A stretch of 38,576 nucleotides of DNA from IMG/VR virus record IMGVR_UViG_3300031802_000004, positions 1 to 38,576 of that record. One strand, written 5' to 3'. The notes beneath the pieces are model-generated. The model did not search any database, was not told where the DNA came from, and saw only the letters and a program-made list of their open reading frames with translations. Position 1 is the stretch's first letter, and every line of letters begins with the position of its first letter. Both the position numbers and the translations under genes were made by a program. This DNA comes from a virus (taxonomy: Duplodnaviria; Caudoviricetes). Below are positions 236 to 20,772 of the stretch, in pieces.

Positions 236-762
236 ATATTTTTATTAAAGATAAACATATTCATTGTTAACCTACACTCGTTCCACGTGTCACCCCATGC
301 ACCGTTTTGTTGATGTGTTTGACTACCATCATACATTATAAGTCTATTAAATTTATTTTCAATATTTGTAATATCGATACGTGTTCCGGTCATTACGGGA
401 TCAATTGGTTCTGGATTTAAATATAATATTCCAGCAATGCAATGTTCTCCGTCATTATGTTCCCATGTATGTGTATCTTTTTTTATTTTATTAAAAGAAA
501 AAGTATACTTTGCATTTATATTATCTAATCCAAATTCATGTTTATATAATGGTGCTATTTTATATAATATATATCCAAATAATACTTGATCTATATTATG
601 TATATGATCGGTTCTTAATCCGGGAAAGCCACTAGTTGTAGGATCGTCCGATAAGTTTGGATGAGTGTGTTTACTATAAAAGTCAAAAGTACTTACTCGA
701 TCGAGTATCATATATGGATCATCTAAAAAATCATCTTTTATAATAAGTTTATTTTGGTTCAT
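232..762 (-). CDS. 2OG-Fe(II) oxygenase superfamily protein
   Basis: HxD (HND), AGILYLN, NRLIMYD, distal H and RLTMNMF motifs. Confidence 0.8.
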   Translation of the reverse strand: MNQNKLIIKDDFLDDPYMILDRVSTFDFYSKHTHPNLSDDPTTSGFPGLRTDHIHNIDQVLFGYILYKIAPLYKHEFGLDNINAKYTFSFNKIKKDTHTWEHNDGEHCIAGILYLNPEPIDPVMTGTRIDITNIENKFNRLIMYDGSQTHQQNGAWGDTWNECRLTMNMFIFNKNI

Positions 763-1282
763 TGTTTGGTTTTAATATGCCTATTAAATGTCTACCGAGG
801 AAAGAAGGCCGTTGATCCCACTCTGCCTGTACATTTTTTGTGATTTTTTCTGTTAAAGAAAAGCCTTGGTCCTTAAAGGAAAGTTCTCTTCCTCTAAATC
901 TAACTGTTATTTTAACTTTATTACCTGCGTCTAAAAATTTTTGTATTTTACTTAGTTTAATATTAAAGTCGTGTTCTTCAATTTGTGGCTTAAACACCAT
1001 TTCTTTTAATAGTACTCTTGTTTCACGAGATTTTTTAACATTTTCTTTATGCTTTTTCTTTTGTGCGTACTTGAGTTTACCTAAATCTATTATTTTACAT
1101 ACAGGAGGATCGGCATTGGGTGAAACACATACCAGATCTAAATTACTATTGGTTGCTTTGTCGCGAGCCTCTTTAGTAGGTATTATACCAAACTGTGCTC
1201 CGTCTGCTCCTATTAGGCGGACATAAGGAACACGAATTTCGTGGTTAGCCAATTGGCGTGACGACTTCTTTTTACTTGTCAT
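749..1282 (-). CDS. infC: translation initiation factor IF-3
   Basis: NHEIRVPYVRLIG, LDLVCVSPNADPPVCKIIDLGK, KVKITVRFRGRE; both domains present. Confidence 0.95.
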   Translation of the reverse strand: MTSKKKSSRQLANHEIRVPYVRLIGADGAQFGIIPTKEARDKATNSNLDLVCVSPNADPPVCKIIDLGKLKYAQKKKHKENVKKSRETRVLLKEMVFKPQIEEHDFNIKLSKIQKFLDAGNKVKITVRFRGRELSFKDQGFSLTEKITKNVQAEWDQRPSFLGRHLIGILKPNNEPK

Positions 1283-2531
1283 TCGTCACTGGTTTTTCTT
1301 CTTTGTCATATACTAATATTGGTTGACCATTATTATCCACTGTATCTCTTGTTACTATAATTTTGTTAATTCCTTTTTCCCGCATTGCAGGAAGATCAAA
1401 TTGTGTTTCTAATAACGCCTTTTCAACAACTGATCTTAAACCTCTTGCTCCTGTTTTATATTGTAAACAATTTTCTACTATTGCATCTAACGAATCAGGA
1501 TTAAATTCTAATTCAATACCATCTAATTTGAATAGATACTTAAACTGTAGTATAACACTATTTTTAGTTTCGGTCAATACTTGTAATAGTTGTTCTTTAT
1601 TTAATTCATGTAAGCCAACATGTATGGATAACCGCCCAATTAATTCAGGTATTAAACCAAACTTCATTAAATCATCTGGCATAAGTTGCGTTATTAATTC
1701 ATTTTTAGCAATATCAGATGTATTAATATCACTTCCGAATCCTATATTAGTATTAGGTGAAACCCGTTTTTTAATTATTTTTTCTATATCAATGAATGCG
1801 CCGCCCACTATAAACAATATATTAGTTGTATCTATTTCTGTTGCGGGTGCTTGTGGATGTTTTCTACCCGGGGATTGTCGTAAGTCTTGTGGTAAACGTA
1901 CTACAGTTCCTTCTATTAGTTTTAATAATGCTTGCTGTACACCTTCACCTGATACATCTCGTGTTATAGATGTGTTTTCACTCTTTCTACTTTTCTTATC
2001 TATCTCATCTATGTACACTATTCCGTGTTTTGCCGCTTCTATATCGCCGTCTGCTGACTGCAATAAACGTACAATAACATTTTCCACGTCGTCGCCTACG
2101 TAACCTGCTTCTGTTAATGTTGTTGCATCTGCTATTGCAAAAGGTACTTCTAAATATTTAGAAATAGTTTTTGCTAATAATGTCTTACCGCAACCGCTAG
2201 GTCCTAGTAATAGTATATTACTTTTCTCTAATTCAATTTCTGCAGAAGGATTTTTAATTCGTTTGTAATGATTATATATGGCTACGCCCAAAACTCTTTT
2301 AGCAGTGTCTTGACCTATTATATAGCAGTCTAAAAATTCTTTTAATTCACTTGGTATAACAGATTCTAATTCCTTTAAAGGTTTTTTAATTTCTTCTTTT
2401 ATTATGTCATGGCATAAGTTAATACATTCGTCACATATATAAACACCTGCACCGGCCACAAGTTTAACAACTTCTGTTCGTTTCTTACTACAAAAATTAC
2501 ATTCTAATTCTGAACCGTCTTCTTCAGCCAT
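1272..2531 (-). CDS. clpX: ATP-dependent Clp protease ATP-binding subunit ClpX
   Basis: C4 zinc domain (CNFC..CDEC), Walker A GPSGCGKT, GYVG pore loop, Walker B YIDEIDK, RDVSGEGVQQALL, RKH, IGF loop, GARGLR. Confidence 0.97.
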   Translation of the reverse strand: MAEEDGSELECNFCSKKRTEVVKLVAGAGVYICDECINLCHDIIKEEIKKPLKELESVIPSELKEFLDCYIIGQDTAKRVLGVAIYNHYKRIKNPSAEIELEKSNILLLGPSGCGKTLLAKTISKYLEVPFAIADATTLTEAGYVGDDVENVIVRLLQSADGDIEAAKHGIVYIDEIDKKSRKSENTSITRDVSGEGVQQALLKLIEGTVVRLPQDLRQSPGRKHPQAPATEIDTTNILFIVGGAFIDIEKIIKKRVSPNTNIGFGSDINTSDIAKNELITQLMPDDLMKFGLIPELIGRLSIHVGLHELNKEQLLQVLTETKNSVILQFKYLFKLDGIELEFNPDSLDAIVENCLQYKTGARGLRSVVEKALLETQFDLPAMREKGINKIIVTRDTVDNNGQPILVYDKEEKPVTNDK

Positions 2532-2946
2532 GTTTTGATTCCAGATCTAATGCTACTTTAAAAGTCGGTAAATCTTCTATAATAACAGTTTTACCTATAG
2601 TATTTAATATTTTTTGTATACTTATATTTTTTTTCTGATCACTATAAAACCATACATTTTCTTGTTTGCTTAAAGAAGCTGCAAATGTTAATTCCAAATT
2701 ATTAATTACATCTAAATTTGCTATAATTAAATCTGCATGATATATATTAGCAATAACCCATGGTATATCTGTATCGGATATAGGTTCTGGAGTAAAATAA
2801 TGTGTTATACTAGATGAACTATATACTTCATCTATTAGACCCTGTGCTTGTTGTCTCCATTCCGGTGACCCTCCTAAGAAATAAAATCTTAAACCTTGCA
2901 CCGGTAAATGTAAATCAGGTGGCGTTACATAGATTGTTTCACCCAT
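2524..2946 (-). CDS. hypothetical protein, possible nucleoside 2-deoxyribosyltransferase-like fold
   Basis: FLGGS..WRQ, W....ADLII and LEL pattern loosely resembles the NDT-like family. Confidence 0.45.
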   Translation of the reverse strand: MGETIYVTPPDLHLPVQGLRFYFLGGSPEWRQQAQGLIDEVYSSSSITHYFTPEPISDTDIPWVIANIYHADLIIANLDVINNLELTFAASLSKQENVWFYSDQKKNISIQKILNTIGKTVIIEDLPTFKVALDLESKHG

Positions 2947-3877
2947 TAACAGGTACTCCTAATATATCTTCTAACAATGCAACATTTTTATCTGCCAATG
3001 GTGTTATATCCTTAACTATTTCTTCTGCTTTAACATAATTTTCAAAGAAAATTGCAATTGGTTCAAGGTTAACTTTTTTATATCCACTCATATTTAATAT
3101 ATTATTCTGAACTAAAGTCTCATAACTTATTATAACATCAGGATTCAATAATTGCACTCTATTAATAAAATCTTTGTGCAATTGTATTTCTTGCTGTAGA
3201 TAATCAGCATTTATTAGTCTATTTGCTAATTTAGTTCGATCTATATAATTTTGTTGTTGACCGGATTGAATATTAAAAAGAGTTGGTGTATCTGCTAAAT
3301 TTGAAATTTCAATCCGAAGTTTACTTGCTAAACCAGCAAGTATATTGTTTCTTACTATTACTATAACAGTTGTATTCTTTCTATCTATCCATGTATCATA
3401 TTCGATATGTCCTGGAAAATATTTAAAATGGTAAGGATATATATCCTCGTCTAATAAATTTAATCTATATGATAATTCTATATTATAGAAGTTAGGTACA
3501 AATTTCCTTATTTTTTGCCATGGTTTTAGTCTACGACAAATTTTTTTATTTTTTATATAATACTCATGAAAATAAAAATCATCACTAGGCAATATATGTT
3601 CTAAATAAAATTCATTCATTTTATCATGATCATTATTTGATATCGTTGTATATAACATAGTAAGCCATTTTTGCCATCGCCAGGTGATGCTACCCGTGGC
3701 TGACAATTTTATAGGATGTAAAGATTTTTTCGTCCTTGGTATAAAAGCATCAAAATTATTTAAAAATTCATATGCAATACAATGTTTTTCAAACTCTGGT
3801 ATTTTATTATATATAACGTTACAAAAAGACGTTGTACCAGTTCGTGCTCGTGCAAACACTATAATATTTTTATCCAT
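2939..3877 (-). CDS. sulfotransferase-like P-loop protein
   Basis: N-terminal IIVFARARTGTT (5'-PSB-like), VIVRNNILAGLAS (3'-PB-like), ISYETL. Confidence 0.6.
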   Translation of the reverse strand: MDKNIIVFARARTGTTSFCNVIYNKIPEFEKHCIAYEFLNNFDAFIPRTKKSLHPIKLSATGSITWRWQKWLTMLYTTISNNDHDKMNEFYLEHILPSDDFYFHEYYIKNKKICRRLKPWQKIRKFVPNFYNIELSYRLNLLDEDIYPYHFKYFPGHIEYDTWIDRKNTTVIVIVRNNILAGLASKLRIEISNLADTPTLFNIQSGQQQNYIDRTKLANRLINADYLQQEIQLHKDFINRVQLLNPDVIISYETLVQNNILNMSGYKKVNLEPIAIFFENYVKAEEIVKDITPLADKNVALLEDILGVPVNG

Positions 3878-4256
3878 CTTTTTTCTTCATTGCTGGCATC
3901 CAACTAGTATCTTTCATATCCAAATCAAAGTCCGATAAAGAACCAAACTCATTGACCATCTCATGATATTTTTTCTCTAAATCCTCATTTTCAACACCAG
4001 ATGTTTCTAATTGTTTTTTTAATCCTTGAATTTGTGATTCTAATTGCTTTATTCTTAATTCGTAACTTTGAGTTTTTAAAGGATACATATTGGGCCCTTG
4101 TACTTCAACCACTTTTTCAACTTCTACTATTTTTTCTATAATAACTTCTTTTGGTTTTTTTTCTAATTCATCTAGAGCACTACTTAATAACTTTAATGTT
4201 TCGGCATACTTTTCCCATATATTATCTATGGATTCTTTAGTCCCCATGTCTCTCAT
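3870..4256 (-). CDS. hypothetical coiled-coil protein
   Basis: ORF overlapping both neighbours; shares the WEKYA..LDELEKKPKEV module with 4237..4461. Confidence 0.75.
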   Translation of the reverse strand: MRDMGTKESIDNIWEKYAETLKLLSSALDELEKKPKEVIIEKIVEVEKVVEVQGPNMYPLKTQSYELRIKQLESQIQGLKKQLETSGVENEDLEKKYHEMVNEFGSLSDFDLDMKDTSWMPAMKKKDG

Positions 4257-4461
4257 GTTTGCTTAATTTGTCTTGCACTTTTTTTTCTAAATCAGCAACG
4301 GCCTGTGGTGTAGTTAAATCAACATTTGCTTCTACTTCAACAATTACTTCTACTTCTTTTGGCTTTTTTTCTAATTCGTCTAAAGTATCGTTAAACATCT
4401 CTAAAATTTTAGCATACTTTTCCCATAAAGCATCAATGGCTACTTGTTTTTCATTTATCAT
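4237..4461 (-). CDS. small coiled-coil protein, mosaic of its two neighbours
   Basis: N-half resembles 3870..4256; C-half resembles the C-terminus of 4451..5935. Confidence 0.7.
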   Translation of the reverse strand: MINEKQVAIDALWEKYAKILEMFNDTLDELEKKPKEVEVIVEVEANVDLTTPQAVADLEKKVQDKLSKHERHGD

Positions 4462-5935
4462 CGTTTGATCCTTTTTTCTTTAACTTTTTTTGTAAACGTT
4501 TTTCCAAACTAGCAATAGCTTGTGGTGTAGTTAGATCGACATTTGCTTCTACTTCTTTTTCTACTAGTTTTTCTACTTCTACTGTTATTACTTTTTCTAT
4601 TATTACTGGATCATGATCGGTTAAGTTTTTTTTTTCTGATGTTACTTCGACACGGCCAGTTTCATCTACTTCTACTTTACCGGAACCAATTGGAGGAGTT
4701 TCTAATGGATTACGAGCACGACGATGTCTGCGATTCATGCCTGATGTGGCTGCCAATAACATCATAACAGCAAATGGATCAAATACAAATATAATAACAA
4801 CAATAACCCAACGTACTGCTTCTTCTAATACATTTTTATTTTGTGCTTTATCATCTGTAAATACAAACTCTGCGATATATTTAATTGGTCCAACGTCTGC
4901 TTCATATATACGATATTGTTTTTCGTATACGAACTTGTCTTCTGATAATACATCTATTTCTGTATAAGCCGCTTTAATAAGAGCGGTTTGTGTATCTACT
5001 AATTCATCAATATCGTCTGTATCTGTATATGTAACTGTAGCACGTATTTGTTCTATTGCTTGTGTAGCACTTGCTATTTCTTTCTCTGCTAATGTACGTA
5101 AACGTTTGATTTCCATTCTTGCCGCTTTAACTTCAGGACGGTCTGCATTACGTATTTCTTCTATTATGTTTAATAGTCTAAATTTTTCTGTGTTATTTGT
5201 TGCACTGAAATCACGTATTGCTTGTGAAGTTACTTCTCTTAATATACCGTCTGCATTAACACCAACTAATGCTTGTACTTTCTTTATTTCATCATTTGCA
5301 ATATGCTTTTCTAACTGTGCAATTCTAGCATCAACTATTGCTAATTGTTCTATATATGTTTTTGTTTGTGTTGCAATAAGTCTATCACTACGATTTATTA
5401 TCTCTTGTTGTTCATTGACTTCTGGTTGTCTACGATCATATGCCGAAGTAATTTGTGATTGTAGTTCAGCAATTCTTTCACTAGTGTTAGTGGATGTATC
5501 TACAACTTGATTTTGTGCATTGTTTATTTTGTTGTTTGCACGTTCTATAATATAGGTTTCACGTGCAATTAAGTCTGTTAATCGTACTATTTTTGCACCA
5601 ATTTCTTTACCGCCGGCGGCATGTTCTATATGTGCCTTGGATAGGAACCCAAAAATACCCATAGAAGTTATTAACATTAAGACTACAACAGCGACGGTCA
5701 GATAGTTCTTCATCCACCGTTTAGTATCTGGCAGGCGCCAAGATTGATGAAGCCATACAGCGGCAACCAACTTTCCTACCTCTAACGTTCCGCCCATTAT
5801 TGCAATTGCTATAGGACTAGCACTAAAAATGGCCATAAGGCCAATAATACTATACCATACTGCTACCGAACTAATCGATATTGCACTAAGAAACGTTAGG
5901 CTAATTAACAACATACCTTGGTAACGTACTTTCAT
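4451..5935 (-). CDS. membrane-anchored coiled-coil phage protein
   Basis: Three N-terminal TM segments (LEVGKLV, ITSMGIFGFLSKAH), long coiled coil, GPIKYIAE and a C-terminal TM (IIFVFDP). Confidence 0.8.
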   Translation of the reverse strand: MKVRYQGMLLISLTFLSAISISSVAVWYSIIGLMAIFSASPIAIAIMGGTLEVGKLVAAVWLHQSWRLPDTKRWMKNYLTVAVVVLMLITSMGIFGFLSKAHIEHAAGGKEIGAKIVRLTDLIARETYIIERANNKINNAQNQVVDTSTNTSERIAELQSQITSAYDRRQPEVNEQQEIINRSDRLIATQTKTYIEQLAIVDARIAQLEKHIANDEIKKVQALVGVNADGILREVTSQAIRDFSATNNTEKFRLLNIIEEIRNADRPEVKAARMEIKRLRTLAEKEIASATQAIEQIRATVTYTDTDDIDELVDTQTALIKAAYTEIDVLSEDKFVYEKQYRIYEADVGPIKYIAEFVFTDDKAQNKNVLEEAVRWVIVVIIFVFDPFAVMMLLAATSGMNRRHRRARNPLETPPIGSGKVEVDETGRVEVTSEKKNLTDHDPVIIEKVITVEVEKLVEKEVEANVDLTTPQAIASLEKRLQKKLKKKGSNDDK

Positions 5936-5958
5936 ATTAAATATTTATCTAAAAAGAG

Positions 5959-6035
5959 TGGTTGGTCCGGGTGGACTCGAACCACCGACCCCCGCATTAT
6001 CAGTGCGATGCTCTAACCAACTGAGCTACGGACCA
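5959..6035 (-). tRNA. tRNA-Ile(GAT)
   Basis: TGGTCCG/CGGACCA acceptor, anticodon loop CTGATAA, GGTTCGAGTCC, encoded CCA. Confidence 0.95.
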
Positions 6036-6040
6036 GAGAA

Positions 6041-6116
6041 TGGTAGGTCCTGAGGGATTTGAACCCCTGATTCTTGCGTGACAGGCAAGTGTGATAACCG
6101 CTTCACCAACGGACCG
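6041..6116 (-). tRNA. tRNA-Asp(GTC), atypical or chimeric 3' end
   Basis: Anticodon arm CTTGC-CTGTCAC-GCAAG. Acceptor CGGTCCG/AGGACCT is mismatched at 1:72 and 7:66. T stem AGGGG/CCCTC is mismatched. Discriminator is A. Confidence 0.85.
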
Positions 6117-6118
6117 AC

Positions 6119-6193
6119 TGGTGGGCCCTGGAAGATTCGAACTTCCGACTTCTGCCATGTAAAGACAGCATTCTACCACTGAATTAAGGGCCC
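6119..6193 (-). tRNA. tRNA-Val(TAC)
   Basis: GGGCCCT/AGGGCCC acceptor, loop TTTACAT, encoded CCA. Confidence 0.95.
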
Positions 6194-6702
6194 TAATTTG
6201 TTTTATACTCGCGCAAATATCTATTACGGTTGTGTGCTTTAATAGCCATACCACCTCTACCCTTCATGCCATAAGTATCCGTCTGTGTATGACAATTAGG
6301 ACATAACAATCGAACATTAGATAAGCTATTATTATCACTATTTCCATCTATATGATCTAATTGTAATGTTAGCATTTTTCCATTCCATTCATCGCCACAA
6401 CCACATTCACTACACACTTTTCCATATGACTCTGCTAAGTATTTCTTAATATTCTCAACGCGGCCGCTACCGTTCTCTATACGCAGTTTAGCAGTCTTCC
6501 ATTGATACGCAATAAAACACTTGTTATCACAATATATATTCGCACTTCGTTTTAATATATCCTCTCCGCAATTCTTACATTGCTTAATTGGTGTTTTCTT
6601 TCTGGACACACTATATCTACCTTGTGATTCTCCGTGTGTTCGCTTATGACCATTTAAGGCTCTATAATTAGAAAACTCCTTATTACATTTTTCACATTTC
6701 AT
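6193..6702 (-). CDS. free-standing HNH homing endonuclease with N-terminal zinc fingers
   Basis: C2H2 finger CEKC..H..TH; CSECG..LQLDHIDGNSDNNSLSNVRLLCPNCH; located inside a tRNA cluster. Confidence 0.92.
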   Translation of the reverse strand: MKCEKCNKEFSNYRALNGHKRTHGESQGRYSVSRKKTPIKQCKNCGEDILKRSANIYCDNKCFIAYQWKTAKLRIENGSGRVENIKKYLAESYGKVCSECGCGDEWNGKMLTLQLDHIDGNSDNNSLSNVRLLCPNCHTQTDTYGMKGRGGMAIKAHNRNRYLREYKTN

Positions 6703-6760
6703 TTTAGTTCATTCTCTGACTATATTTATTTATCTATCTACTCGTTATCTGAACTAAAAT
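6701..6760 (-). promoter_or_regulatory. 11-bp hairpin sequestering the HNH start, with a late-type promoter in its loop
   Basis: ATTTTAGTTCA (6701-6711) / TGAACTAAAAT (6750-6760); ATAAATAAATA on the minus strand at 6723-6733. Confidence 0.65.
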
Positions 6761-6761
6761 A

Positions 6762-6836
6762 TGGTGGAGCTGACAGGGGTCGAACCTGCGACATCCACCG
6801 TGCAAGGGTGGCGCTCTCCCGCTGAGCTAAGGACCT
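6762..6836 (-). tRNA. tRNA-Ala(TGC), atypical or chimeric 5' end
   Basis: Good D, anticodon (CCACC-CTTGCAC-GGTGG) and T arms and 3' CAGCTCCACCA, but the 5' strand AGGTCCT mismatches at 4 of 7 positions. Confidence 0.85.
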
Positions 6837-6853
6837 ATATATAGTAATTTTCA

Positions 6854-7150
6854 TTATAACACAAAGTTTATAATAAAACTACCACCGGATTTTTCTAGAA
6901 GACAACTTTTTAATTTAGGATTAGTAGAAACCCAATCCTCAAATTCTTCGCACATTTTTCCTTTACCGGTTATAACTCGTGCTTTTTTATACTGTAATCC
7001 GGAGCATGTATCTACAAATTCTTTAAATGTTTCCCACGCATTATGTATAGGAATACCGTGCAAATCTAATTCCGATGTCTCTTTTTCTTCGCGTACTTCT
7101 TCCCAGTATTGACGTTGTGCTTTAGAAAACCTAATCATTTGATCTATCAT
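6854..7150 (-). CDS. Smr/MutS2-domain endonuclease
   Basis: LDLHG (DxH), VITGKG (GxG), C-terminal GGSFII. Confidence 0.88.
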   Translation of the reverse strand: MIDQMIRFSKAQRQYWEEVREEKETSELDLHGIPIHNAWETFKEFVDTCSGLQYKKARVITGKGKMCEEFEDWVSTNPKLKSCLLEKSGGSFIINFVL

Positions 7151-7152
7151 GT

Positions 7153-7494
7153 CTAATATTTTTCTGCATGACCTTCTGATACTAATTTTTCATTAATATT
7201 TGTTTCGTTACCAGCGTCATCTACTACATATACAATACCTAGTATACGACCAAACTTTCCACGTTTGTTTAATATTGTTTCTATTACAAATTTGGTACCG
7301 ACCAATTCTATTAATCTGGTTTTAATTGCTAATCCTTTCGCACGGATAGCATCATCTTTATTTTTTGGATCAGGACATTTAATACCGAAAAGGCGTATTC
7401 GTTGTTTAACAAAAACACCAAATCCTAGATCTATATTAGCATCTATCGTACTGCCGTCTATAACCCTAATTAATTTAGCATTATACTTATACAT
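7153..7494 (-). CDS. thermonuclease (SNase)-like protein, possibly catalytically degenerate
   Basis: RVIDGSTID..IDLGF..RIRLFGI..GKFGRILG..NINEKLVSEGHA; start placed at the ATG at 7494 behind a late promoter. Confidence 0.8.
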   Translation of the reverse strand: MYKYNAKLIRVIDGSTIDANIDLGFGVFVKQRIRLFGIKCPDPKNKDDAIRAKGLAIKTRLIELVGTKFVIETILNKRGKFGRILGIVYVVDDAGNETNINEKLVSEGHAEKY

Positions 7495-7520
7495 AACTAT
7501 ATTTATTTGATATTCTATCA

Positions 7521-7550
7521 AACTAAAAGACGCCGAAGCGTCTTTTAGTT
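7521..7550 (-). terminator. intrinsic terminator, possibly bidirectional
   Basis: AACTAAAAGACGC-TTCG-GCGTCTTTTAGTT, a perfect 13-bp stem with a cUUCGg loop. Confidence 0.85.
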
Positions 7551-7572
7551 GTTTCGCGCAGAATTAATCTAC

Positions 7573-7827
7573 TTATTCTGGGCAAGCAAAGGTTATATAA
7601 CTTCCATGATCTTGTTTATCGGTTATAAGTTCTGCAAAAATACCAGCCTCATGAATAGCCTTTTTTGAATTTTCTATAAACTGTTTATCACGTGATAAAT
7701 TTACAGGGTACTCTCTATCATAACCATATGGTATTACTGTTATTGCACCGGGTTTTACTTCTATTATACAGTTCCACTTCTTTTTCATGTTATCAGATAT
7801 GTCTGATTCGAATTTGCTAGTAATCAT
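7573..7827 (-). CDS. hypothetical protein
   Basis: ORF between a sigma70-type promoter with AAGGA SD and a terminator. Confidence 0.7.
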   Translation of the reverse strand: MITSKFESDISDNMKKKWNCIIEVKPGAITVIPYGYDREYPVNLSRDKQFIENSKKAIHEAGIFAELITDKQDHGSYITFACPE

Positions 7828-7877: not shown

Positions 7878-8447
7878 TCATAATATCCAAGTCATTACAC
7901 TATATCTTGTACCTTTTGTTACTTCTTTAACTTCATGCGGATACATAAAATTTGAAGGAAAAACAACACAAGAACCTTGGGCAGGTTTCTTTTCAAACTC
8001 ACCATCACATAAAACAAAATTTCCACCTTCATAATTATCATTAAGAAATAATAAACTAGTAATATGCGGAAACCCATATTCTTGTCCGTGACTGTGTGCT
8101 ATATTATCTATATGTCGTTGCATCCATCCACCTTTTAAATATCTATTTAAACGAAAGGGAGTAGTCATATTAATATTAATATCAGGATAATAATCCCTAT
8201 ATGTTTCTATTGCTTCTGCAAATGCCCTCCATAAAGTACTATAATGACCTTCTGCTCTATTTTTAGTAATCCACCATTCGTCCATTTGTAAGTGTTGTCC
8301 TGGACTATCTTTAATAGTACCGTATCCAGAATTAAAATGACTAGGACCCCAGTCTGCAAATTCCTCGTAATAGTCTATTATTGCATTGCATTGATCTGGT
8401 TCCAAAATGTTTGGAAATAATTTAACGTAATCTAATCTTGTTGTCAT
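7878..8447 (-). CDS. prolyl-4-hydroxylase-like 2OG-Fe(II) oxygenase
   Basis: RHID, LFLNDNYEGG, FPSNFMYPHEVKEVTKGTRYS. Confidence 0.9.
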   Translation of the reverse strand: MTTRLDYVKLFPNILEPDQCNAIIDYYEEFADWGPSHFNSGYGTIKDSPGQHLQMDEWWITKNRAEGHYSTLWRAFAEAIETYRDYYPDININMTTPFRLNRYLKGGWMQRHIDNIAHSHGQEYGFPHITSLLFLNDNYEGGNFVLCDGEFEKKPAQGSCVVFPSNFMYPHEVKEVTKGTRYSVMTWIL

Positions 8448-10670: not shown

Positions 10671-10682
10671 TTTAATTTCCTT

Positions 10683-11276: not shown

Positions 11277-11287
11277 TTATATATCAG

Positions 11288-12684: not shown

Positions 12685-12687
12685 TTA

Positions 12688-13533
12688 TTATCCTGTCATG
12701 CTTGCGAGCGCACTTATAGAAGGACTATGATCTGGTCCTGCTTGTTGTTTTGGGTCTTGTACAACTGGTCTGCCTTGTTGCTCGCGGCTTCCTCTTACTG
12801 ACGGATGAGCAAGAGGATAACCTGTGCCACCTGCTTGTCGTATTGTTTGCCACGCAATCGCCGCCGGCTTTTTTGGAGCCATGTTTAACCATTGTCGAAT
12901 GTTCTTTTCATTCTGATTATTTTGTATTTTTGCATTGTGTTGTGTTTTATTTTCTTCTTCTGAATTATCCATAACAAAAAAGTAACCTTGTCCAAATAAA
13001 TTTCTAAAACTTTCTACATTTTGTTCAATTTCAGCATGTGTTTTTGTAAGAATTTCGTGTGGTACTTTACGTCCACCTTTTGCATATCGACTTGCATTTC
13101 TTTCTATTGTTGTTTTTAAATCTGCAAAAACAAATACCATTATTGTATCATATCCTATAGATTCAAGGCGTCCTTTAATACCTTTAATTTTATCAAAGTC
13201 TTTAGCAGTACCATCAATAACTATTCCGCGTCGTTCTTGCAAGAAATTTCTTTTTCGAGTACCTGTTAATTTTTTTGCTTTTGTACGGATATCATCTCGC
13301 TGTTCTTGTTCTTCTGGCGGCATATCTTTACGAAGTCCTTCCTTATCCATTAACAGTTCGAATACTTTATCAGAATCAATTATCCTTAATCCTTCTCCCC
13401 CAAATAAATTTTGATGTACATGACCTTTACCAGATGCAGGTGTTCCTGCCATAAAAACTGCTTTAAAAATATTAGGCTCGTCTGTAAATGTACCTTCGGG
13501 TTTTTCTGTTAAGATAACTTCATTAATACGCAT
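12688..13533 (-). CDS. zeta-toxin/AAA_33-like P-loop kinase
   Basis: KAVFMAGTPASGKG, IDSD, IVIDGT, IERNASR...RKVP. Confidence 0.8.
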   Translation of the reverse strand: MRINEVILTEKPEGTFTDEPNIFKAVFMAGTPASGKGHVHQNLFGGEGLRIIDSDKVFELLMDKEGLRKDMPPEEQEQRDDIRTKAKKLTGTRKRNFLQERRGIVIDGTAKDFDKIKGIKGRLESIGYDTIMVFVFADLKTTIERNASRYAKGGRKVPHEILTKTHAEIEQNVESFRNLFGQGYFFVMDNSEEENKTQHNAKIQNNQNEKNIRQWLNMAPKKPAAIAWQTIRQAGGTGYPLAHPSVRGSREQQGRPVVQDPKQQAGPDHSPSISALASMTG

Positions 13534-13544
13534 ATAACTATTTA

Positions 13545-14066
13545 TTAAACATTCTTATAGAATATATGTGAACCTATTTGTTTTGTTTTTGACAGACGGG
13601 TCGCCCATTTTGGCGAAACATATGTAGCATGATAATGTGTTGCCCCGTCAATGGGATCCGAGTATTTGTTTAATACAAGAATTTCATATGTAAGAGTAGT
13701 TGCTATTTGCCAACTTTTAGATTCTTTAACAGGTTCATCTCTGAGACCGTCACAATACCAACTAAATTGACATGTATTGCGTTTAGGAAAAGAAGTACCT
13801 GTAAGAGTTGGGCCTTCTTTAACTACATTACATATTGTGTTAGGATACCTTTTATTTTTTAATCTGTTTAAAACAACAAAAGCAACTGCTACTTGTCCTT
13901 CTATATTTTCACTTCTTGCTTCCCAATATATATTTTGTGCCATACAGTAAAATTCTTGGGTAGACGCAACTTGATTGAGATTTAAAGGGGCAAATGCTTC
14001 CTTAATAGGATGAAACATAAACAACGATATAACAAACGCTAATAAATATTTTTTCATTCTTGCCAA
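13545..14066 (-). CDS. SleB/Hydrolase_2 cell-wall hydrolase
   Basis: CMAQNIYWEARSE, VAFVVLNR, CQFSW, GATHYHATYVSPKW, IGSHIFY. Confidence 0.92.
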   Translation of the reverse strand: MARMKKYLLAFVISLFMFHPIKEAFAPLNLNQVASTQEFYCMAQNIYWEARSENIEGQVAVAFVVLNRLKNKRYPNTICNVVKEGPTLTGTSFPKRNTCQFSWYCDGLRDEPVKESKSWQIATTLTYEILVLNKYSDPIDGATHYHATYVSPKWATRLSKTKQIGSHIFYKNV

Positions 14067-14296
14067 TGGTCGGGCCCTTTACGTATTTGGTAACGAAAGT
14101 TTTCATTACCAATTTTTTCGTTTAAATTGTTACGATGAATTTTTGCCTGTTCTTTACTATTAAAGTATATATCCTCTACAGCATTTTCACCTTTTCGACT
14201 AGTGTCTACTACTTTATATAATAGAGGCGTATCGGGCTCTACTTCTGGATCTACAAATACAAAAGCCATAGGCTCATATTCCTTCATTTCATTCAT
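14054..14296 (-). CDS. hypothetical protein
   Basis: ORF with AAGGA SD behind a consensus promoter. Confidence 0.65.
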   Translation of the reverse strand: MNEMKEYEPMAFVFVDPEVEPDTPLLYKVVDTSRKGENAVEDIYFNSKEQAKIHRNNLNEKIGNENFRYQIRKGPDHWQE

Positions 14297-14342
14297 ATTA
14301 GTATTTCCTTATATCCTTATATTAAACTAACATTATATATAC

Positions 14343-14371
14343 ATTATAACACCAAGAACTCTTGCTGTCAA
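14343..14371 (-). promoter_or_regulatory. consensus sigma70-type promoter
   Basis: TTGACA-17 nt-TATAAT with extended TG. Confidence 0.8.
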
Positions 14372-14382
14372 CCATTATATAA

Positions 14383-14469
14383 TGGTGCCCCGAGAGGGAC
14401 TTGAACCCCCACTCCCTTTCGAGAACTAGGACCTAAACCTAGCGTGTATACCAATTTCACCACCGGGGC
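14383..14469 (-). tRNA. tRNA-Leu(TAG)
   Basis: GCCCCGG/TCGGGGC acceptor, loop TTTAGGT, long variable arm, CCA. Confidence 0.95.
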
Positions 14470-14475
14470 TATTCA

Positions 14476-14742
14476 TTAACCTCCCATAGAATCATTAGAA
14501 TTCCACATTTTTTTTGCAGGATGAACCTTTCGTACCGTAGATCCTTTGGGCAATGTTTGTGCTGTATCTCTTGCTAAAAGGTCTATCTCATAAACAGGAG
14601 GATTGCACTTTCTAAACTTTCCTGTTTTAGACATTATTTTTGTAAACCCTAAAGACTTACTATTATACTCTCCTCCAAACACTTCCCAAATATGCGGATC
14701 TAAAAGTTTATATCCTCTACGATTGCATGTACTATAAAACAT
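14476..14742 (-). CDS. hypothetical protein
   Basis: ORF filling the gap on the coding strand. Confidence 0.55.
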   Translation of the reverse strand: MFYSTCNRRGYKLLDPHIWEVFGGEYNSKSLGFTKIMSKTGKFRKCNPPVYEIDLLARDTAQTLPKGSTVRKVHPAKKMWNSNDSMGG

Positions 14743-14743
14743 T

Positions 14744-15079
14744 TTAATTTATTATCCTTGGTTTACCATCGTGCCCTAATGCAACGTTTATAAAATCACC
14801 TTTTGCAACTATATCATCACCTACGTATACATCAACATGTACAGTAGCAGATGTTTTTCCTATTTTTAATACATAACCATAACAGGAAACCAAATCTCCT
14901 ACTTGTACTGCCTTTATGAACTCTATATTATTAGCGGCACGAGTAGCACTTTTGCCTTCAGGTGCAATATGTGCAGATGCTAAATCCATAAGACCCATAA
15001 GCCAACCGCCAAATATGTCTCCACGTGCATTAGTATCGCGAGGCATTGCAGATACTTGTATAACTAACTCACCTTTCAT
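14744..15079 (-). CDS. acyl-CoA thioesterase (YciA-like hot-dog fold)
   Basis: AMPRDTNARGDIFGGWLMGLMDLA, FIKAVQVGDLV, IGKTS. Confidence 0.9.
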   Translation of the reverse strand: MKGELVIQVSAMPRDTNARGDIFGGWLMGLMDLASAHIAPEGKSATRAANNIEFIKAVQVGDLVSCYGYVLKIGKTSATVHVDVYVGDDIVAKGDFINVALGHDGKPRIIN

Positions 15080-15680
15080 AAGTTTCCATTAATTGAAATT
15101 GATCTTCTGTCATTCCCATAATATCAAAGTTATAAGATATAATAGTTTTTCTGTTTGTTGATTCAATAGGCGGACATCTATGAATAGCAAAAGCAGGAAA
15201 GAAACAAATGTCTCCTTCCTTTACGTCAGGTACTAATATTTTTTCTCCCGACATTACTTCTGTTTTATTAGTTTCATCATCTGCTAGTTCTACATAGTAT
15301 GCGCCAGTAAAATTATGATCATGTATATGCCAATTATGAAAATTATTTTGTGTGTATTGTTGAAACCATAAGTCGTTAAATTTAATTCTATTTAAACCTA
15401 ACTGCTGTTGCACCATACTATTAAGTTTTTGATGTATTAACTCTAATATTAGGTTTACCCACGGTCTGTTTTTAAAATCTGTTGATTTATCCCAGTCTAA
15501 TTTATTAATAGGAGATTTTGATAATGTGTTTTGGGGTGCCGAATGTTGCTTATATTGAGGAGGCATCTCCATAGTTGTACTATCGGATTCTGCAATCAAA
15601 TCTAATAGTTCATCTTTTAATGCATGTAATTCCGGAAAAGGTTCCGATACATAGTATGTGTCAAGTAGTATTTTGGTCAT
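15069..15680 (-). CDS. putative 2OG-Fe(II) oxygenase
   Basis: WFQQY, HNWHIH, GAYY, EGDICFFP..HRCPP, KTIISYN. Confidence 0.82.
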   Translation of the reverse strand: MTKILLDTYYVSEPFPELHALKDELLDLIAESDSTTMEMPPQYKQHSAPQNTLSKSPINKLDWDKSTDFKNRPWVNLILELIHQKLNSMVQQQLGLNRIKFNDLWFQQYTQNNFHNWHIHDHNFTGAYYVELADDETNKTEVMSGEKILVPDVKEGDICFFPAFAIHRCPPIESTNRKTIISYNFDIMGMTEDQFQLMETYER

Positions 15681-16203
15681 TTAATAATTTTTTAATTATT
15701 GTTGGATATAATTTATGTTCTATTTTGTGTATTTTTCTTTCTAATGTTTCTAATGTATCTTTTTTTGTAACATTAACTGTTTTTTGTGCAATAATTTCGC
15801 CTTCGTCTATTTGTTCATTTACATAATGTATAGTAACACCTGTAACTTTAACACCATATTCCCATGCTCGTTTAATTGCATGAGCGCCTTTAAAGGCAGG
15901 TAACAATGAAGGATGTACGTTAACAATTTTATTACGCCATCTATATATAAACTGTTCTCCCAATATACGCATAAACCCGGCAAGAACAATTAATTTTATA
16001 TCTTTTGCTTCACATATTGCGGTTATTTCTTTTTCTAATATATGTGTTGCTTTATAAGAACTCCATGGTATTCTTGCGTTTTCTGCTCGTCGTAAACCTT
16101 GTGCTTCTGATGTGTTTGATATGACATGGGACACAGGTATGCCTGCATCTAATATTGCTTGTAAATTAGTACCTGATCCAGATATTAATACTACTATTGA
16201 CAT
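15661..16203 (-). CDS. purN: phosphoribosylglycinamide formyltransferase
   Basis: LISGSGTNLQA, LAGFMRIL, NVHPSLLPAFKG, GVTIHYV..IDEG, EHKLYP. Confidence 0.96.
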   Translation of the reverse strand: MSIVVLISGSGTNLQAILDAGIPVSHVISNTSEAQGLRRAENARIPWSSYKATHILEKEITAICEAKDIKLIVLAGFMRILGEQFIYRWRNKIVNVHPSLLPAFKGAHAIKRAWEYGVKVTGVTIHYVNEQIDEGEIIAQKTVNVTKKDTLETLERKIHKIEHKLYPTIIKKLLNDQNTT

Positions 16204-16208
16204 GCAAA

Positions 16209-16216
16209 TATTTATA
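16209..16216 (-). promoter_or_regulatory. T4-type late promoter
   Basis: TATAAATA 5 nt before the purN ATG. ATAAATA boxes also at 5942-5948, 7500-7506, 13539-13545, 19338-19345, 34678-34685 and 35888-35894. Confidence 0.65.
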
Positions 16217-16856
16217 TGCCTACGGTAATATTAATTACTATCCTCTTTTTGCTTTTTATAGGATTGCTTGATGCATGATATTGATCCCCGTCAAATATAA
16301 GTACACTATTTTTTTCAGGTGTGACTCTTTGTTTTATAGTTAAATCAGTAGGTACAGTTTGTCCTCGATCTTCATTACATTCATTAAAAATAAATGTATC
16401 TCCATCTGAATCATCTAGATAGTAAATTATATTTAAATAATTTCTAGTATGGCCATGATCTACATGTGGAAAATTATAATCATCTTTAGTATAATTCGGT
16501 GCCGGTAATAATAAATTTGCTTTACAACGAATAATGGCCTTATATTTTATATCACATTTATCATTAAGAAAATAATATATGGGTCTTACTTTGTCCCAAA
16601 ATGGAGAACGTTCATTACCTTGCCATTCGTTGTTGGATTGACCAAACACATCCATATTATTCCAAAAGACGTGAGTAAATTGGATAGAATCTTTATAAGA
16701 TTGAGTATAATTAGTTCTTTCAATTTGAAATTCTAAATCTGTAGTGCGCTCATTAAAAAACCATGGAAATTCTTTAGTCTCGCCAGGTGGTAAAAACATA
16801 CGATTTAGATCTAATACATAATCTTCTGATAAAAAGTTTTTTATTATTTTAATCAT
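16212..16856 (-). CDS. 2OG-Fe(II) oxygenase superfamily protein
   Basis: PHVD, IYYLDDSDGDT, FDGDQYHASSNP, RIVIN. Confidence 0.85.
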   Translation of the reverse strand: MIKIIKNFLSEDYVLDLNRMFLPPGETKEFPWFFNERTTDLEFQIERTNYTQSYKDSIQFTHVFWNNMDVFGQSNNEWQGNERSPFWDKVRPIYYFLNDKCDIKYKAIIRCKANLLLPAPNYTKDDYNFPHVDHGHTRNYLNIIYYLDDSDGDTFIFNECNEDRGQTVPTDLTIKQRVTPEKNSVLIFDGDQYHASSNPIKSKKRIVINITVGI

Positions 16857-16861
16857 AATCT

Positions 16862-16935
16862 TGGCTGGGACACAGGGATTCGAACCCCAACTGACAGAAT
16901 CAAAATCTGTAGTGCTACCGTTACACTATGTCCCA
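16862..16935 (-). tRNA. tRNA-Gln(TTG)
   Basis: TGGGACA/TGTCCCA acceptor, G73, loop TTTTGAT, CCA. Confidence 0.95.
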
Positions 16936-16937
16936 AT

Positions 16938-17567
16938 TTAAAATTGTTGAGGCCCATAGTCTCTATAATTAAAATGTATATTTGCCGACATAGATCTTCG
17001 GATCCCTTCTCCTTTAAAAGGCATAACAGTATGTGATAGCCAGCCTGGAAAAAAATAACAATCTCCTACTTTTGGTAATCTAACAAATCCTGTTTTTACA
17101 AACTTTTGTTGCCGGCCGTCGAGCCAGGTAATCAGTCCATCTATGTTTTCTTCAGTAATACAGTCAGGAACTTTTAAATATGCAATCATTGATATAAGAG
17201 AAGGTGCATGTTCATGTATAGGATTCCATTCATGTTCTACCATATCATTAATCCATGCGGAAGTAATTTCAAAAGAGTTAGGAACAAGTTCTCCTCTATC
17301 ATCTGTTAATCTAGACACATATTTTTCTATTTGATTATAGAACCATCCTTGAAGGTTCATATTTTGCCAAATTCCAGGCGCATCAGAAATAACTACTCTT
17401 TTTTCTAATTCAATATGTCCTACAAGATTTGGTCTATACTCTTTTTCTATAGAAAGTTTTTCATCATTTACTACTTCATCCATATATTCATTTAACTTGT
17501 CTATATATTCTGATGGTATATCAACACGCATAATTGTTGGACCAAACGGTGTAAAAAATTCTGTCAT
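16938..17567 (-). CDS. putative 2OG-Fe(II) oxygenase
   Basis: PFGPTI, SAWIN, EWNPIHEH, YLKVP, FFPGWLSHTVMPF, RRSMSAN. Confidence 0.85.
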   Translation of the reverse strand: MTEFFTPFGPTIMRVDIPSEYIDKLNEYMDEVVNDEKLSIEKEYRPNLVGHIELEKRVVISDAPGIWQNMNLQGWFYNQIEKYVSRLTDDRGELVPNSFEITSAWINDMVEHEWNPIHEHAPSLISMIAYLKVPDCITEENIDGLITWLDGRQQKFVKTGFVRLPKVGDCYFFPGWLSHTVMPFKGEGIRRSMSANIHFNYRDYGPQQF

Positions 17568-18475
17568 ATTACTTCTCCAATAACTTTTGCATCTTTAATA
17601 TGATCTAAAATTTTATCAGTTTCTTTTGCTACTAACAACATTCCCCATCCACAATTAAACGTGCTTTCAAATTCTGCTTTACTAAATTTAGTTTTCTTAT
17701 ATAGTTCTTGCCACTGTTCGGTATATTTAAACTTTAATTTATAACTAGTTCCTTTTGGAAGAACACGCGGCAAGTTACCATGTATACCTCCTCCGGTAAT
17801 ATGTGCTAATGCATTAATATGTTTTATTACCGGTAATACATCATGTATGTATATCCTAGTAGGAGTTAACATCTCTTCTGTGTATTCTTTATAAAGTTTT
17901 CTTATGAGACTAAATCCATTACTATGTAAGCCACTACTAGGTATTCCTATTATATGATCTCCTACTTTAACATTTTTAGGACGCACATCTTGTACATGTA
18001 CTAAACCAATTGCAAACCCTGCTAAATCAAAATTTGACTTTGTATATACTCCTGGCATTTCGGCAGTTTCGCCTCCTACCAATTGGCAGTCTGCTATTTC
18101 ACATCCTCGTTGTATTCCTTTAAGTATTTCTTTACTTTTCGTTAGTACTAATTTTCCTGTTGCATAATAATCTAAAAAAGCAAAAGGTGTTGCTCCATGA
18201 CATATAATATCATTGACACACATAGCAACTAAATCAATACCTATAGTGTCATACTTTTTTAATTGCTCTGCTACTAATATTTTAGTGCCTACACCATCTG
18301 TACCCATTACTAGTTTACAGCCGGTATGCCAATAAGGATTATTCCATGTAGTAAACTGTGGTAATGTTTTATCGATATCAATAATAGCACCGTAACCACT
18401 TATGCCTAAATGCTTAACTAACTTATCTGCTTTACTAACATCTACGCCTGCATTTTTATATGTTATCCTAGCCAC
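17564..18475 (-). CDS. purM: phosphoribosylformylglycinamidine cyclo-ligase (AIR synthetase)
   Basis: YKNAGVD, TDGVGTK, GIDLVAMCVND, GGETAEMPG, SSGLHSNGFSL, HITGGG, TFNCG. Confidence 0.97.
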   Translation of the reverse strand: MARITYKNAGVDVSKADKLVKHLGISGYGAIIDIDKTLPQFTTWNNPYWHTGCKLVMGTDGVGTKILVAEQLKKYDTIGIDLVAMCVNDIICHGATPFAFLDYYATGKLVLTKSKEILKGIQRGCEIADCQLVGGETAEMPGVYTKSNFDLAGFAIGLVHVQDVRPKNVKVGDHIIGIPSSGLHSNGFSLIRKLYKEYTEEMLTPTRIYIHDVLPVIKHINALAHITGGGIHGNLPRVLPKGTSYKLKFKYTEQWQELYKKTKFSKAEFESTFNCGWGMLLVAKETDKILDHIKDAKVIGEVI

Positions 18476-20497: not shown

Positions 20498-20506
20498 AAC
20501 ATATTA

Positions 20507-20535
20507 ATAATACTATCATATGAAGGATTTGTCAA
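20507..20535 (-). promoter_or_regulatory. sigma70-type promoter
   Basis: TTGACA-17 nt-TATTAT. Confidence 0.7.
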
Positions 20536-20552
20536 CCAAAGCGTCTTGCCAT

Positions 20553-20772
20553 AAAAAAAGGGGGATTTTTGTTAACAAGGATTATCCCGAACCCCGAACT
20601 AGCGATTTATGCCGCTAGTTTATACTCATAAACGTCGTTGTTGGCGTTTAATAGGTTGTGTATCTCTTTACTGCTTTCCTTGCCCTGTCGAATCTATTTC
20701 GCCCCCATGTGGTGGAGGCGGCCGGTACTGCCCCGGCGTCCAAAACCTCTACTTGCAGTACGTCATCAATAC
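20553..20772 (-). ncRNA. ssrA: permuted two-piece tmRNA (alphaproteobacterial type), tag (A)ANNDVYEYKLAA
   Basis: Order is T arm GCCGG-GGCAGTA-CCGGC, CGCCTCC-A-CCA (ends 20710), CAT spacer, then GGGGGCG-AAATAGATTCGAC (starts 20706). G3:U70 pair. Tag ORF 20645-20607 ends LAA-TAA. 3' U-tract. 5' end approximate. Confidence 0.92.

What the first reader, a model, noticed from the sequence alone, without database searches (positions are those of the whole stretch)
749..20772. Candidate phage-encoded ribosome-rescue and degradation axis: Smr nuclease, two-piece tmRNA, ClpX and IF3
Seen: within 20 kb on one strand are an Smr protein with intact DxH and GxG motifs (6854..7150), a tmRNA whose tag ends in LAA, a full clpX, and infC overlapping clpX. 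Known: E. coli SmrB cuts mRNA on collided ribosomes, tmRNA tags the nascent chain on the resulting non-stop mRNA, ClpXP recognises C-terminal LAA, and IF3 keeps recycled subunits apart. Inference: the phage carries most steps of a pathway that could clear ribosomes from host or damaged mRNA and destroy the products. The genes are dispersed rather than in one operon, and smpB and clpP are not in this window.
Basis: partly seen in the sequence, partly recalled or inferred. Interest (0 to 1): 0.8.

Follow-up and report, generated by a model that had tools for sequence, protein, structure and literature searches.

The report
Jumbo-phage translation and Clp gene block
A fragment of an uncultured seawater phage, likely a giant one, carries a ribosome-rescue RNA, a protein-unfolding motor, a translation-start factor and a shortened nuclease; they belong to a gene block shared with cultured giant phages and likely top up the host's translation and protein clean-up rather than form one dedicated rescue pathway.

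Summary
All four genes are real and look functional. smr, clpX and infC are under purifying selection. ClpX keeps all six ssrA-reading residues. The two-piece tmRNA has alanine identity and a conserved LAA tag. They are not shown to be one pathway. They sit in a lineage-wide block of Atu_ph07/Phosso-like jumbo phages: tmRNA, then a variable region, then membrane gene-clpX-infC-rpsU-hsp20-clpS. Near-identical contigs show that this phage also carries bS21, Hsp20 and ClpS just off the window. In 49 relatives picked by ClpX: tmRNA 24, Smr 20, bS21 48, SmpB 0. Among the 35 IF3-bearing records, Smr and tmRNA assort independently (odds ratio 0.93). The window's Smr lacks SmrB's acidic ribosome hook. 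None of 22 phage Smr proteins pairs an intact hook with a His230-type ClpX. Most of the block (tmRNA, clpX beside IF3, S21, Hsp20) is published for Sinorhizobium phage AP-J-162. I found no paper on the phage Smr. This scan has already noted the same block on other DNA at least seven times. Verdict: new member of a known kind; the pathway reading is only partly supported.

The parts
749..1282 (-). infC, two-domain IF3 (177 aa); ATG start overlapping the clpX stop
   Evidence: PF05198+PF00707, TIGR00168 above cut-off, aligns over its length to solved IF3, dN/dS 0.12-0.13
1272..2531 (-). clpX, full length (419 aa): C4 zinc domain, Walker A/B, GYVG pore-1, TRDV pore-2, RKH loop with a 4-residue insertion before it, IGF loop
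   Evidence: TIGR00382 and PRK05342 above cut-off; alignment to solved ClpX 8e91; six ssrA-contact residues per PMC7652416; dN/dS 0.10-0.13
4451..5935 (-). 494-aa membrane/coiled-coil phage protein of unknown family; the most constant upstream neighbour of clpX
   Evidence: present in 76 of 80 clpX loci; no Pfam, PHROG or NCBIfam hit; Atlas look-alikes are unnamed viral clusters
6854..7150 (-). stand-alone Smr domain (98 aa): DxH and GxG intact; short N-terminal helix without the acidic --xxxa hook motif
   Evidence: PF01713; model pLDDT 85, helix 2-20; Foldseek hits MutS2 Smr (E 1e-5) and SmrB 7qgr (E 1.3e-3); dN/dS 0.19-0.35
7153..7521 (-). SNase-family nuclease directly upstream of smr (2-nt gap)
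   Evidence: PF00565; in 28 of 83 loci; dN/dS 0.10-0.11
13545..14066 (-). SleB-type cell-wall hydrolase, a positional marker of the block
   Evidence: PF07486; in 38 of 83 loci
20558..20816 (-). permuted (two-piece) alphaproteobacterial-type tmRNA gene: acceptor piece to CCA at 20710, 3-nt intervening segment 20709-20707, coding piece from 20706, 7-bp acceptor stem with G3-U70 and A73, GGCAGUA T-loop
   Evidence: Rfam RF04321 and RF01849; anatomy
20607..20645 (-). tag reading frame ANNDVYEYKLAA-stop, with the stop inside a hairpin
   Evidence: a natural variant in two runs shows 5 of 5 displayed tag changes synonymous
5959..6193 (-). tRNA-Val, tRNA-Asp, tRNA-Ile cluster between smr and the membrane gene; further tRNAs Gly 11287, Leu 14383, Gln 16862, Glu 19922
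   Evidence: ARAGORN, Rfam

Best explanation
The four genes are part of a block shared across a lineage of aquatic and soil jumbo phages related to Atu_ph07 and Phosso (tmRNA, a variable tRNA/accessory region, then membrane gene-clpX-infC-rpsU-hsp20-clpS), which likely supplements the host's translation initiation, ribosome rescue and proteolysis as separately useful modules. Shown: gene identities, gene order, motif retention, purifying selection, co-occurrence counts. Inferred: (1) host RNase P, exonucleases and alanyl-tRNA synthetase mature and charge the tmRNA, and it works with host SmpB, adding rescue capacity when infection overloads or damages mRNA; (2) phage ClpX, with phage or host ClpP, degrades LAA-tagged and other proteins alongside ClpS and Hsp20; (3) IF3 and bS21 act on 30S initiation and subunit supply; (4) Smr is an accessory RNase whose cut products would reach tmRNA only through the ordinary cellular route, not through a coupled phage machine. 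The host is probably a marine alphaproteobacterium.
For: Block order and prevalence within 10 kb in 80 clpX loci: membrane gene 76, bS21 76, Hsp20 72, ClpS 72, IF3 62, Smr 23. Near-identical contigs L222/L223 carry bS21, Hsp20 and ClpS 1.1-2.3 kb past infC. tmRNA in 24 of 49 records, in 3 of 3 complete ones, and in 21 of 25 IF3-bearing records with at least 25 kb upstream. SmpB 0 of 49 plus 0 of 2 cultured. SspB 0 of 5, RRF 1 of 5 complete genomes. Smr and tmRNA independent among IF3-bearing records, OR 0.93. Smr is inverted relative to clpX in 12 of 20 records and lies about 40-113 kb away in 5 of 20. In the cultured-phage collection, 33 Escherichia records have IF3 but at most 1 has ClpX, and 15 Prevotella records have ClpX but at most 3 have IF3 (deduced from the tallies). 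Sampled alphaproteobacteria already hold a permuted tmRNA (147 of 151) and an Smr gene (90 of 101), so the phage duplicates host machinery.
Against: The fixed position of the tmRNA (24 of 24), and the joint absence of IF3, Smr and tmRNA in a 16-row clpX subclade (0 of 13 records searched), also fit a functional link, though that is one evolutionary event and the records are fragments. All four genes co-occur in 3 of 5 complete genomes. Smr absences are unreliable in fragments because Smr can sit over 40 kb away, so the independence test is weak. Records were picked by ClpX and include near-copies. No expression or activity data exist. Host and genome size are inferred from relatives.
Confidence: 0.6

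Rival explanations
1. A dedicated phage rescue-and-degrade axis: Smr would cut mRNA on collided ribosomes, phage tmRNA with host SmpB would tag the chains, phage ClpXP would destroy them, and IF3 (with bS21) would recycle subunits to phage mRNA.
For: DxH/GxG kept in 113 and 105 of 116 Smr homologues. This phage's ClpX keeps all six ssrA contacts. All 25 related tmRNAs examined have a tag-like frame, 24 printed ending in Ala. All four genes in 3 of 5 complete genomes. The SmrB preprint says SmrB touches S21 on the stalled ribosome and that S21 and SMR genes are linked in several bacteria; bS21 is in 48 of 49 records.
Against: The SMR domain alone does not bind ribosomes in the SmrB preprint. 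Here the aromatic residue is 13 aa from DxH with no acidic pair, against 27-42 aa in 13 hooked phage Smr and 28-104 aa in 15 of 20 bacterial ones. All 13 hooked phage Smr go with a ClpX lacking the His230 equivalent, and all 9 hookless or degenerate ones go with RKH; H230A greatly raises KM for ssrA substrates. Independence of Smr and tmRNA, and no SmpB or SspB. 14 kb and many unrelated genes separate smr from the tmRNA.
Confidence: 0.17
2. The genes do unrelated jobs and are neighbours only by descent. Smr and the adjacent SNase would degrade host nucleic acid for the purine genes nearby, ClpX would serve replication or virion assembly, IF3/bS21 would serve initiation, and the tmRNA would be one more RNA in the tRNA region.
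For: smr abuts the SNase gene here and lies within about 2.5 kb of one in several marine loci. purC, purF, purM, purN and a ribonucleotide reductase are in the window, guaC just outside it. PMC6102473 and PMC11242549 propose a replication role for ClpX, and PMC7824862 an assembly role. Permuted tmRNAs occur in marine T4-like phages, and none of the 47 tmRNA-pattern loci showed clpX, infC or smr in the flanks held.
Against: clpX-infC-rpsU-hsp20-clpS adjacency persists across 49-56% ClpX identity. The topoisomerase neighbours cited for the replication idea are not among the 45 commonest neighbour families in the 83 loci. The SmrB preprint favours RNA substrates for SMR domains.
Confidence: 0.18
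3. Counter-defence: the tmRNA, tRNAs and Smr would mainly repair translation after host anti-phage RNases cut tRNAs or mRNAs.
For: PMC7824862 frames jumbo-phage tRNAs, PTH2 and IF3 this way. The tmRNA sits at the edge of a tRNA-rich variable region.
Against: Nothing in the window or relatives tests it; no host defence system is known. It does not explain ClpX, ClpS or Hsp20.
Confidence: 0.05

Closest known systems
Clp / IF3 / S21 / Hsp20 / tmRNA complement of Sinorhizobium phage AP-J-162 (PMC11242549), Agrobacterium phage Atu_ph07 (MF403008, PMC6102473) and Sinorhizobium phage Phosso (PV764938)
   Same: clpX directly followed by infC; Smr about 8-9 kb upstream in Atu_ph07 and Phosso; ClpP-family gene elsewhere; no SmpB; Phosso has a permuted tmRNA beside the PAAR gene, as the window does. 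The AP-J-162 paper lists tmRNA, clpX next to IF-3, S21 and Hsp20.
   Different: Marine. Smr is on the clpX strand and hookless. ClpX has RKH where both cultured phages have RKN. The tmRNA intervening segment is 3 nt against 410 nt in Phosso. Atu_ph07 has no tmRNA. The window adds purine genes, MlaC and many 2OG-Fe(II) oxygenases.
E. coli SmrB (YfcN), collision-triggered mRNA endonuclease (bioRxiv 10.1101/2021.08.16.456513; PDB 7qgn/7qgr)
   Same: Stand-alone SMR fold with DxH and GxG.
   Different: 98 vs 183 aa; no acidic --xxxa motif; linker about 13 vs 84 aa; shortened loop after GxG. Phage Smr proteins fall on one side of a branch against 20 alphaproteobacterial ones (SH-aLRT 88, not starred).
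Alphaproteobacterial two-piece tmRNA (RF01849, RF04321) and the two-piece tmRNAs of marine phages such as Melnitz (PMC9004378)
   Same: Permuted gene, GGCRGUA T-loop, G3-U70, AN..AA tag.
   Different: Compact: model span 166 nt against a minimum of 181 among the over-cut-off matches in 151 sampled bacteria; 61 nt from G1 to the resume codon against 83-86 in most of 30 bacterial loci. The 3-nt intervening segment is not unique (3-6 nt in 4 of 30 bacterial loci).
Translation-gene repertoire of huge phages (PMC7162821) and group 2.2 jumbo phages (PMC7824862)
   Same: IF3, S21, tmRNA and ClpX in phages, with ribosome rescue already proposed.
   Different: 'Smr' has 0 occurrences in the main text of PMC7824862 (not searched in PMC7162821). 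Some huge phages carry SmpB; this lineage does not.

Membership tests
SmrB-type proteobacterial SMR nuclease | SMR fold | tested here: met
   PF01713 above cut-off; model pLDDT 85; Foldseek TM 0.68-0.70 to SmrB and MutS2 Smr
SmrB-type proteobacterial SMR nuclease | Catalytic DxH and GxG motifs | tested here: met
   D29-L-H31, G62-K-G64; D29, L30, H31, G62, G64 at 90% or more in 114 sequences
SmrB-type proteobacterial SMR nuclease | N-terminal hook helix with --xxxa motif and a long linker | tested here: not met
   Helix 2-20 predicted, but W16 has no preceding acidic pair and is 13 aa from D29
SmrB-type proteobacterial SMR nuclease | Cleaves mRNA on collided ribosomes | not testable with these tools
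   Needs a disome cleavage assay
Permuted (two-piece) tmRNA, alpha lineage | Acceptor piece-CCA, intervening segment, coding piece; Rfam above gathering score | tested here: met
   RF04321 97.8 vs 47; RF01849 74.4 vs 50; anatomy
Permuted (two-piece) tmRNA, alpha lineage | Alanine identity (G3-U70, A73) and a tag frame ending in Ala-Ala | tested here: met
   7 of 7 acceptor pairs including G3-U70; tag conserved by synonymous change
Permuted (two-piece) tmRNA, alpha lineage | Processed into two pieces, charged and active with SmpB | not testable with these tools
   No RNA run holds the region searched; the cofactor would have to be the host's
ClpX (ssrA-reading) | Equivalog score, zinc domain, Walker motifs, IGF loop | tested here: met
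ClpX (ssrA-reading) | Y153, V154, T199, V202, R228, H230 equivalents | tested here: met
   All six identical in the alignment to 8e91 (list from PMC7652416); 4-residue insertion before RKH, effect unknown
IF3 | Both domains, equivalog score | tested here: met
Self-contained phage trans-translation/ClpXP pathway | Own SmpB (and SspB) | tested here: not met
   SmpB 0 of 51 related records, SspB 0 of 5 complete genomes; this phage's own full genome is not held
Self-contained phage trans-translation/ClpXP pathway | Parts gained and lost together | tested here: inconclusive
   Smr vs tmRNA: OR 3.0, p 0.08 over 49 records; OR 0.93, p 1.0 over 35 IF3-bearing ones; fragments and kinship limit the test
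Atu_ph07/Phosso-like jumbo-phage block | clpX-infC-rpsU-hsp20-clpS order with upstream tmRNA | tested here: met
   Window plus L222/L223; relatives. Genome size and major structural genes of this phage were not tested

The most novel reading that the evidence does not exclude
Marine jumbo phages have rebuilt collision sensing: a hookless Smr docks on ribosomes that carry the phage's own bS21, cuts mRNA under stalled ribosomes, and hands them to a minimal phage tmRNA and an ssrA-reading phage ClpX, so the phage strips ribosomes off host messages and feeds them, through IF3, to its own.
Probability: 0.1. Interest if true: 0.8.

Novelty: new member of a known kind. Interest (0 to 1): 0.3.

Why it matters
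The block itself is largely published, so this fragment mainly extends it to a marine phage. Two points are useful. First, a phage-specific Smr family exists in hooked and hookless forms; I found no paper on it, though Phosso's GenBank record names the gene. Second, Phosso is cultured and has all four genes plus ClpP, RRF, bS21 and an unannotated permuted tmRNA. That makes the open question of what phage tmRNAs do directly testable in a laboratory Sinorhizobium host. If Smr proved ribosome-directed, it would be a phage-encoded collision sensor.

Tried and rejected
Single-protein scans of IMG/VR with Smr and IF3 found nothing; ClpX worked. The broad Smr alignment was too variable for a locus scan. 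Smr-bS21 complex prediction gave no verdict (score 0.00), which is no evidence either way. No RNA holder was listed for 700-7600; this says nothing on expression. The idea that the 3-nt intervening segment is unique was rejected (also L017 and G002/G008). The idea that one-piece tmRNA replaces the permuted form in the IF3-less subclade found no support: RF00023 gave 0 of 49 over cut-off, and the two best unexplained hits were tRNAs. Host assignment below class failed: PurF is at most 56% identical among 401 unnamed alphaproteobacterial genomes, and the tmRNA pattern hit three unrelated MAG contigs. Sigma-70 and terminator scans were at chance level. MFE folding of the tmRNA was only z -1.7. 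The careful ClpX tree did not finish; the quick tree leaves the window on a long, unplaced branch. Three structural or unknown window proteins gave no close cultured relative. The infC start-codon check was too crude to support a claim about autoregulation. clpP and smpB could not be sought in this phage's own longer contigs. Literature searches 'phage + Smr domain + jumbo' and 'phage-encoded tmRNA + trans-translation' returned 0 papers; 'phage + bS21 + ClpX' returned one unrelated review.


Full report
1. Observation. The held record is the window itself, a 38,576-nt virus contig found in seawater runs. infC (749-1282), clpX (1272-2531), smr (6854-7150) and a permuted tmRNA (20558-20816) are present on the minus strand, each above its family cut-off. 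Every window ORF with a family hit is on that strand (59 ORFs scanned), so co-orientation is uninformative. Between clpX and the tmRNA lie 32 ORFs, including purC, purF, purM, purN, MlaC, an HNH nuclease and several 2OG-Fe(II) oxygenases, plus 7 tRNAs. Right of the tmRNA are tail, PAAR and virion genes.

2. Do the parts look functional? ClpX aligns to solved ClpX with the six residues that PMC7652416 names for ssrA reading, an IGF loop, and a 4-residue insertion before RKH. IF3 has both domains. The tmRNA has a 7-pair acceptor stem with G3-U70, A73, encoded CCA, an alpha-type T-loop, a 3-nt intervening segment and the tag ANNDVYEYKLAA. A variant in two runs differs at 13 letters, 11 of them displayed. 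The 5 displayed in the tag are all synonymous (about 0.0004 by chance), and by my reading one is matched by a change that keeps the stop-codon hairpin; the 2 undisplayed differences could lie in the tag. Against relatives about 88% identical, dN/dS is 0.10-0.13 for clpX and infC and 0.19-0.35 for smr. The Smr model (pLDDT 85) matches MutS2 and SmrB SMR domains. Its N-terminal helix lacks the acidic motif and long linker; the SmrB preprint reports that the SMR domain alone does not bind ribosomes.

3. Context. Two metagenome contigs 99.99-100% identical over 11,282 nt extend the left end: infC, two oxygenase-like genes, bS21, Hsp20, ClpS, guaC (ClpS and Hsp20 score under the NCBIfam equivalog cut-offs but match my lineage profiles). 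Cultured Atu_ph07 and Phosso have clpX-infC with Smr 8-9 kb upstream on the other strand. The best 80 of 157 IMG/VR ClpX loci show, within 10 kb: membrane gene 76, bS21 76, Hsp20 72, ClpS 72, IF3 62, Smr 23.

4. Co-occurrence. I gave the 50 longest of those 80 contigs to whole-record searches; 49 were held. Permuted tmRNA 24 of 49; Smr 20 of 49; bS21 48 of 49; ClpP family 22 of 49 over cut-off, some of a weaker second type; SmpB 0 of 49. The tmRNA is always 4.9-26 kb upstream of clpX on its strand (24 of 24). Smr is within 6 kb upstream in 15 of 20, far away in 5, and inverted in 12. Smr vs tmRNA: 13 both, 11 tmRNA only, 7 Smr only, 18 neither (p 0.08). Among the 35 IF3-bearing records: 13/10/7/5 (OR 0.93, p 1.0). 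The overall trend comes from the 14 IF3-less records, 13 of which belong to one subclade. Five complete genomes: G002, G003 and Phosso have all four genes; G001 lacks IF3, Smr and bS21; Atu_ph07 lacks tmRNA; SspB 0 of 5, RRF 1 of 5. Limits: selection by ClpX, fragments, near-copies, no phylogenetic correction.

5. A pattern against a complete axis. Of 22 phage Smr proteins (21 relatives plus the window), 13 have the hook and all 13 belong to phages whose ClpX reads RKN or KKN at the RKH loop; the 9 hookless or degenerate ones all go with RKH. No examined phage has both canonical ends of the pathway. This reflects two clades, so it is about one event, and Asn at that site is untested (only H230A is).

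6. Mechanism. Best reading (0.6): an inherited supplement to host translation and proteostasis, with tmRNA relying on host SmpB and Smr as an accessory RNase. Sampled alphaproteobacteria already have both tmRNA (147 of 151) and Smr (90 of 101). Rivals: dedicated axis (0.17), unrelated jobs with Smr+SNase in salvage (0.18), counter-defence (0.05). All functional steps are inferred. The roles of RNase P, alanyl-tRNA synthetase, G3-U70, IF3 anti-association and the ClpX IGF loop are from my own knowledge, not from calls.

7. What is known. PMC11242549 (passages, Table 1) reports tmRNA, clpX beside IF-3, S21 and Hsp20 in AP-J-162. PMC6102473 (passages) reports seven Clp genes in Atu_ph07. PMC7824862 (passages) notes IF3 and ClpX in group 2.2 and ribosome rescue. 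PMC7162821 (passages) lists IF3, S21, tmRNA and SmpB in huge phages. PMC9004378 (passages) covers two-piece tmRNA in marine phages. PMC11915505: first fifth and passages. SmrB preprint: passages and one section. PMC7652416: passages. PMC9723584 and PMC10897456: listing and abstract start only. No supplements were read; those of PMC7162821, PMC7824862, PMC11242549 and PMC11915505 may already list the Smr or these tmRNAs. Not found in print: phage Smr (0 hits for 'Smr' in three main texts). Seven earlier notes of this scan describe the same block on other DNA; they gave me the AP-J-162 lead and the clade-wide loop check, and they are not independent support.

8. Verdict. Observation confirmed; interpretation partly supported. 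New member of a known kind; interest 0.3. Novel case (bS21-docked hookless Smr driving ribosome takeover): probability 0.1, interest 0.8 if true.

Noticed in passing
L003:1501-2103 (PV764938.1 349596-350198, minus): Phosso has a permuted tmRNA with a 410-nt intervening segment and tag ANDNVSTKVALAA; I did not fetch the annotation of most of that stretch, and none of it is listed in the part seen.
   Followed up: partly
window 6193-6835 (-): A tRNA-Ala(UGC)-like gene with a mispaired acceptor stem (6765-6835) whose 5' end matches the relatives' tRNA-Val, then an HNH nuclease and a different tRNA-Val. Relatives at 88% have other DNA here; likely an HNH insertion into a tRNA gene.
   Followed up: partly
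window 4451-5935 (-): Unnamed 494-aa membrane/coiled-coil protein is the most constant clpX neighbour (76 of 80 loci); also in XacN1, Mosig and other phages; no family.
   Followed up: partly
window 9936-18475 (-): Four purine biosynthesis genes (purC, purF, purN, purM) dispersed among tRNAs; guaC lies just past the window in L222.
   Followed up: no
window 8444-9094 (-): MlaC/HpnM-like periplasmic lipid-transport protein in a phage (PF05494, 109 bits); one run lacks cover over about 7.8-10.6 kb, so the stretch may be variable.
   Followed up: no
window 24243-24437 (-): Histone H1-like Hc1 match (PF07432, 41.8 bits) in a 64-aa ORF.
   Followed up: no
window 3870-5935 (-): The C-terminal stretch of the 494-aa gene is repeated at the start of the next two ORFs (4237-4461, 3870-4256), suggesting tandem partial duplication.
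   Followed up: no
window 16209, 19338, 20177, 25279, 34678, 38363 (-): All six TATAAATA sites are on the coding strand and five lie at gene boundaries, like T4 late promoters; the count is below chance (10 expected), and none precedes clpX, infC, smr or the tmRNA.
   Followed up: partly
L222:18963-20345 (+): 460-aa ORF that looks to me like an indoleamine 2,3-dioxygenase (recalled resemblance; no NCBIfam hit, Pfam not run), beside an FAD oxidoreductase and a lysozyme-like gene.
   Followed up: no
L108-L140 subset, Phosso, Atu_ph07: 18 of 80 IMG/VR ClpX proteins plus both cultured phages read RKN instead of RKH (one more KKN, one RRH), yet many of these phages keep a tmRNA with an Ala-Ala tag.
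   Followed up: partly
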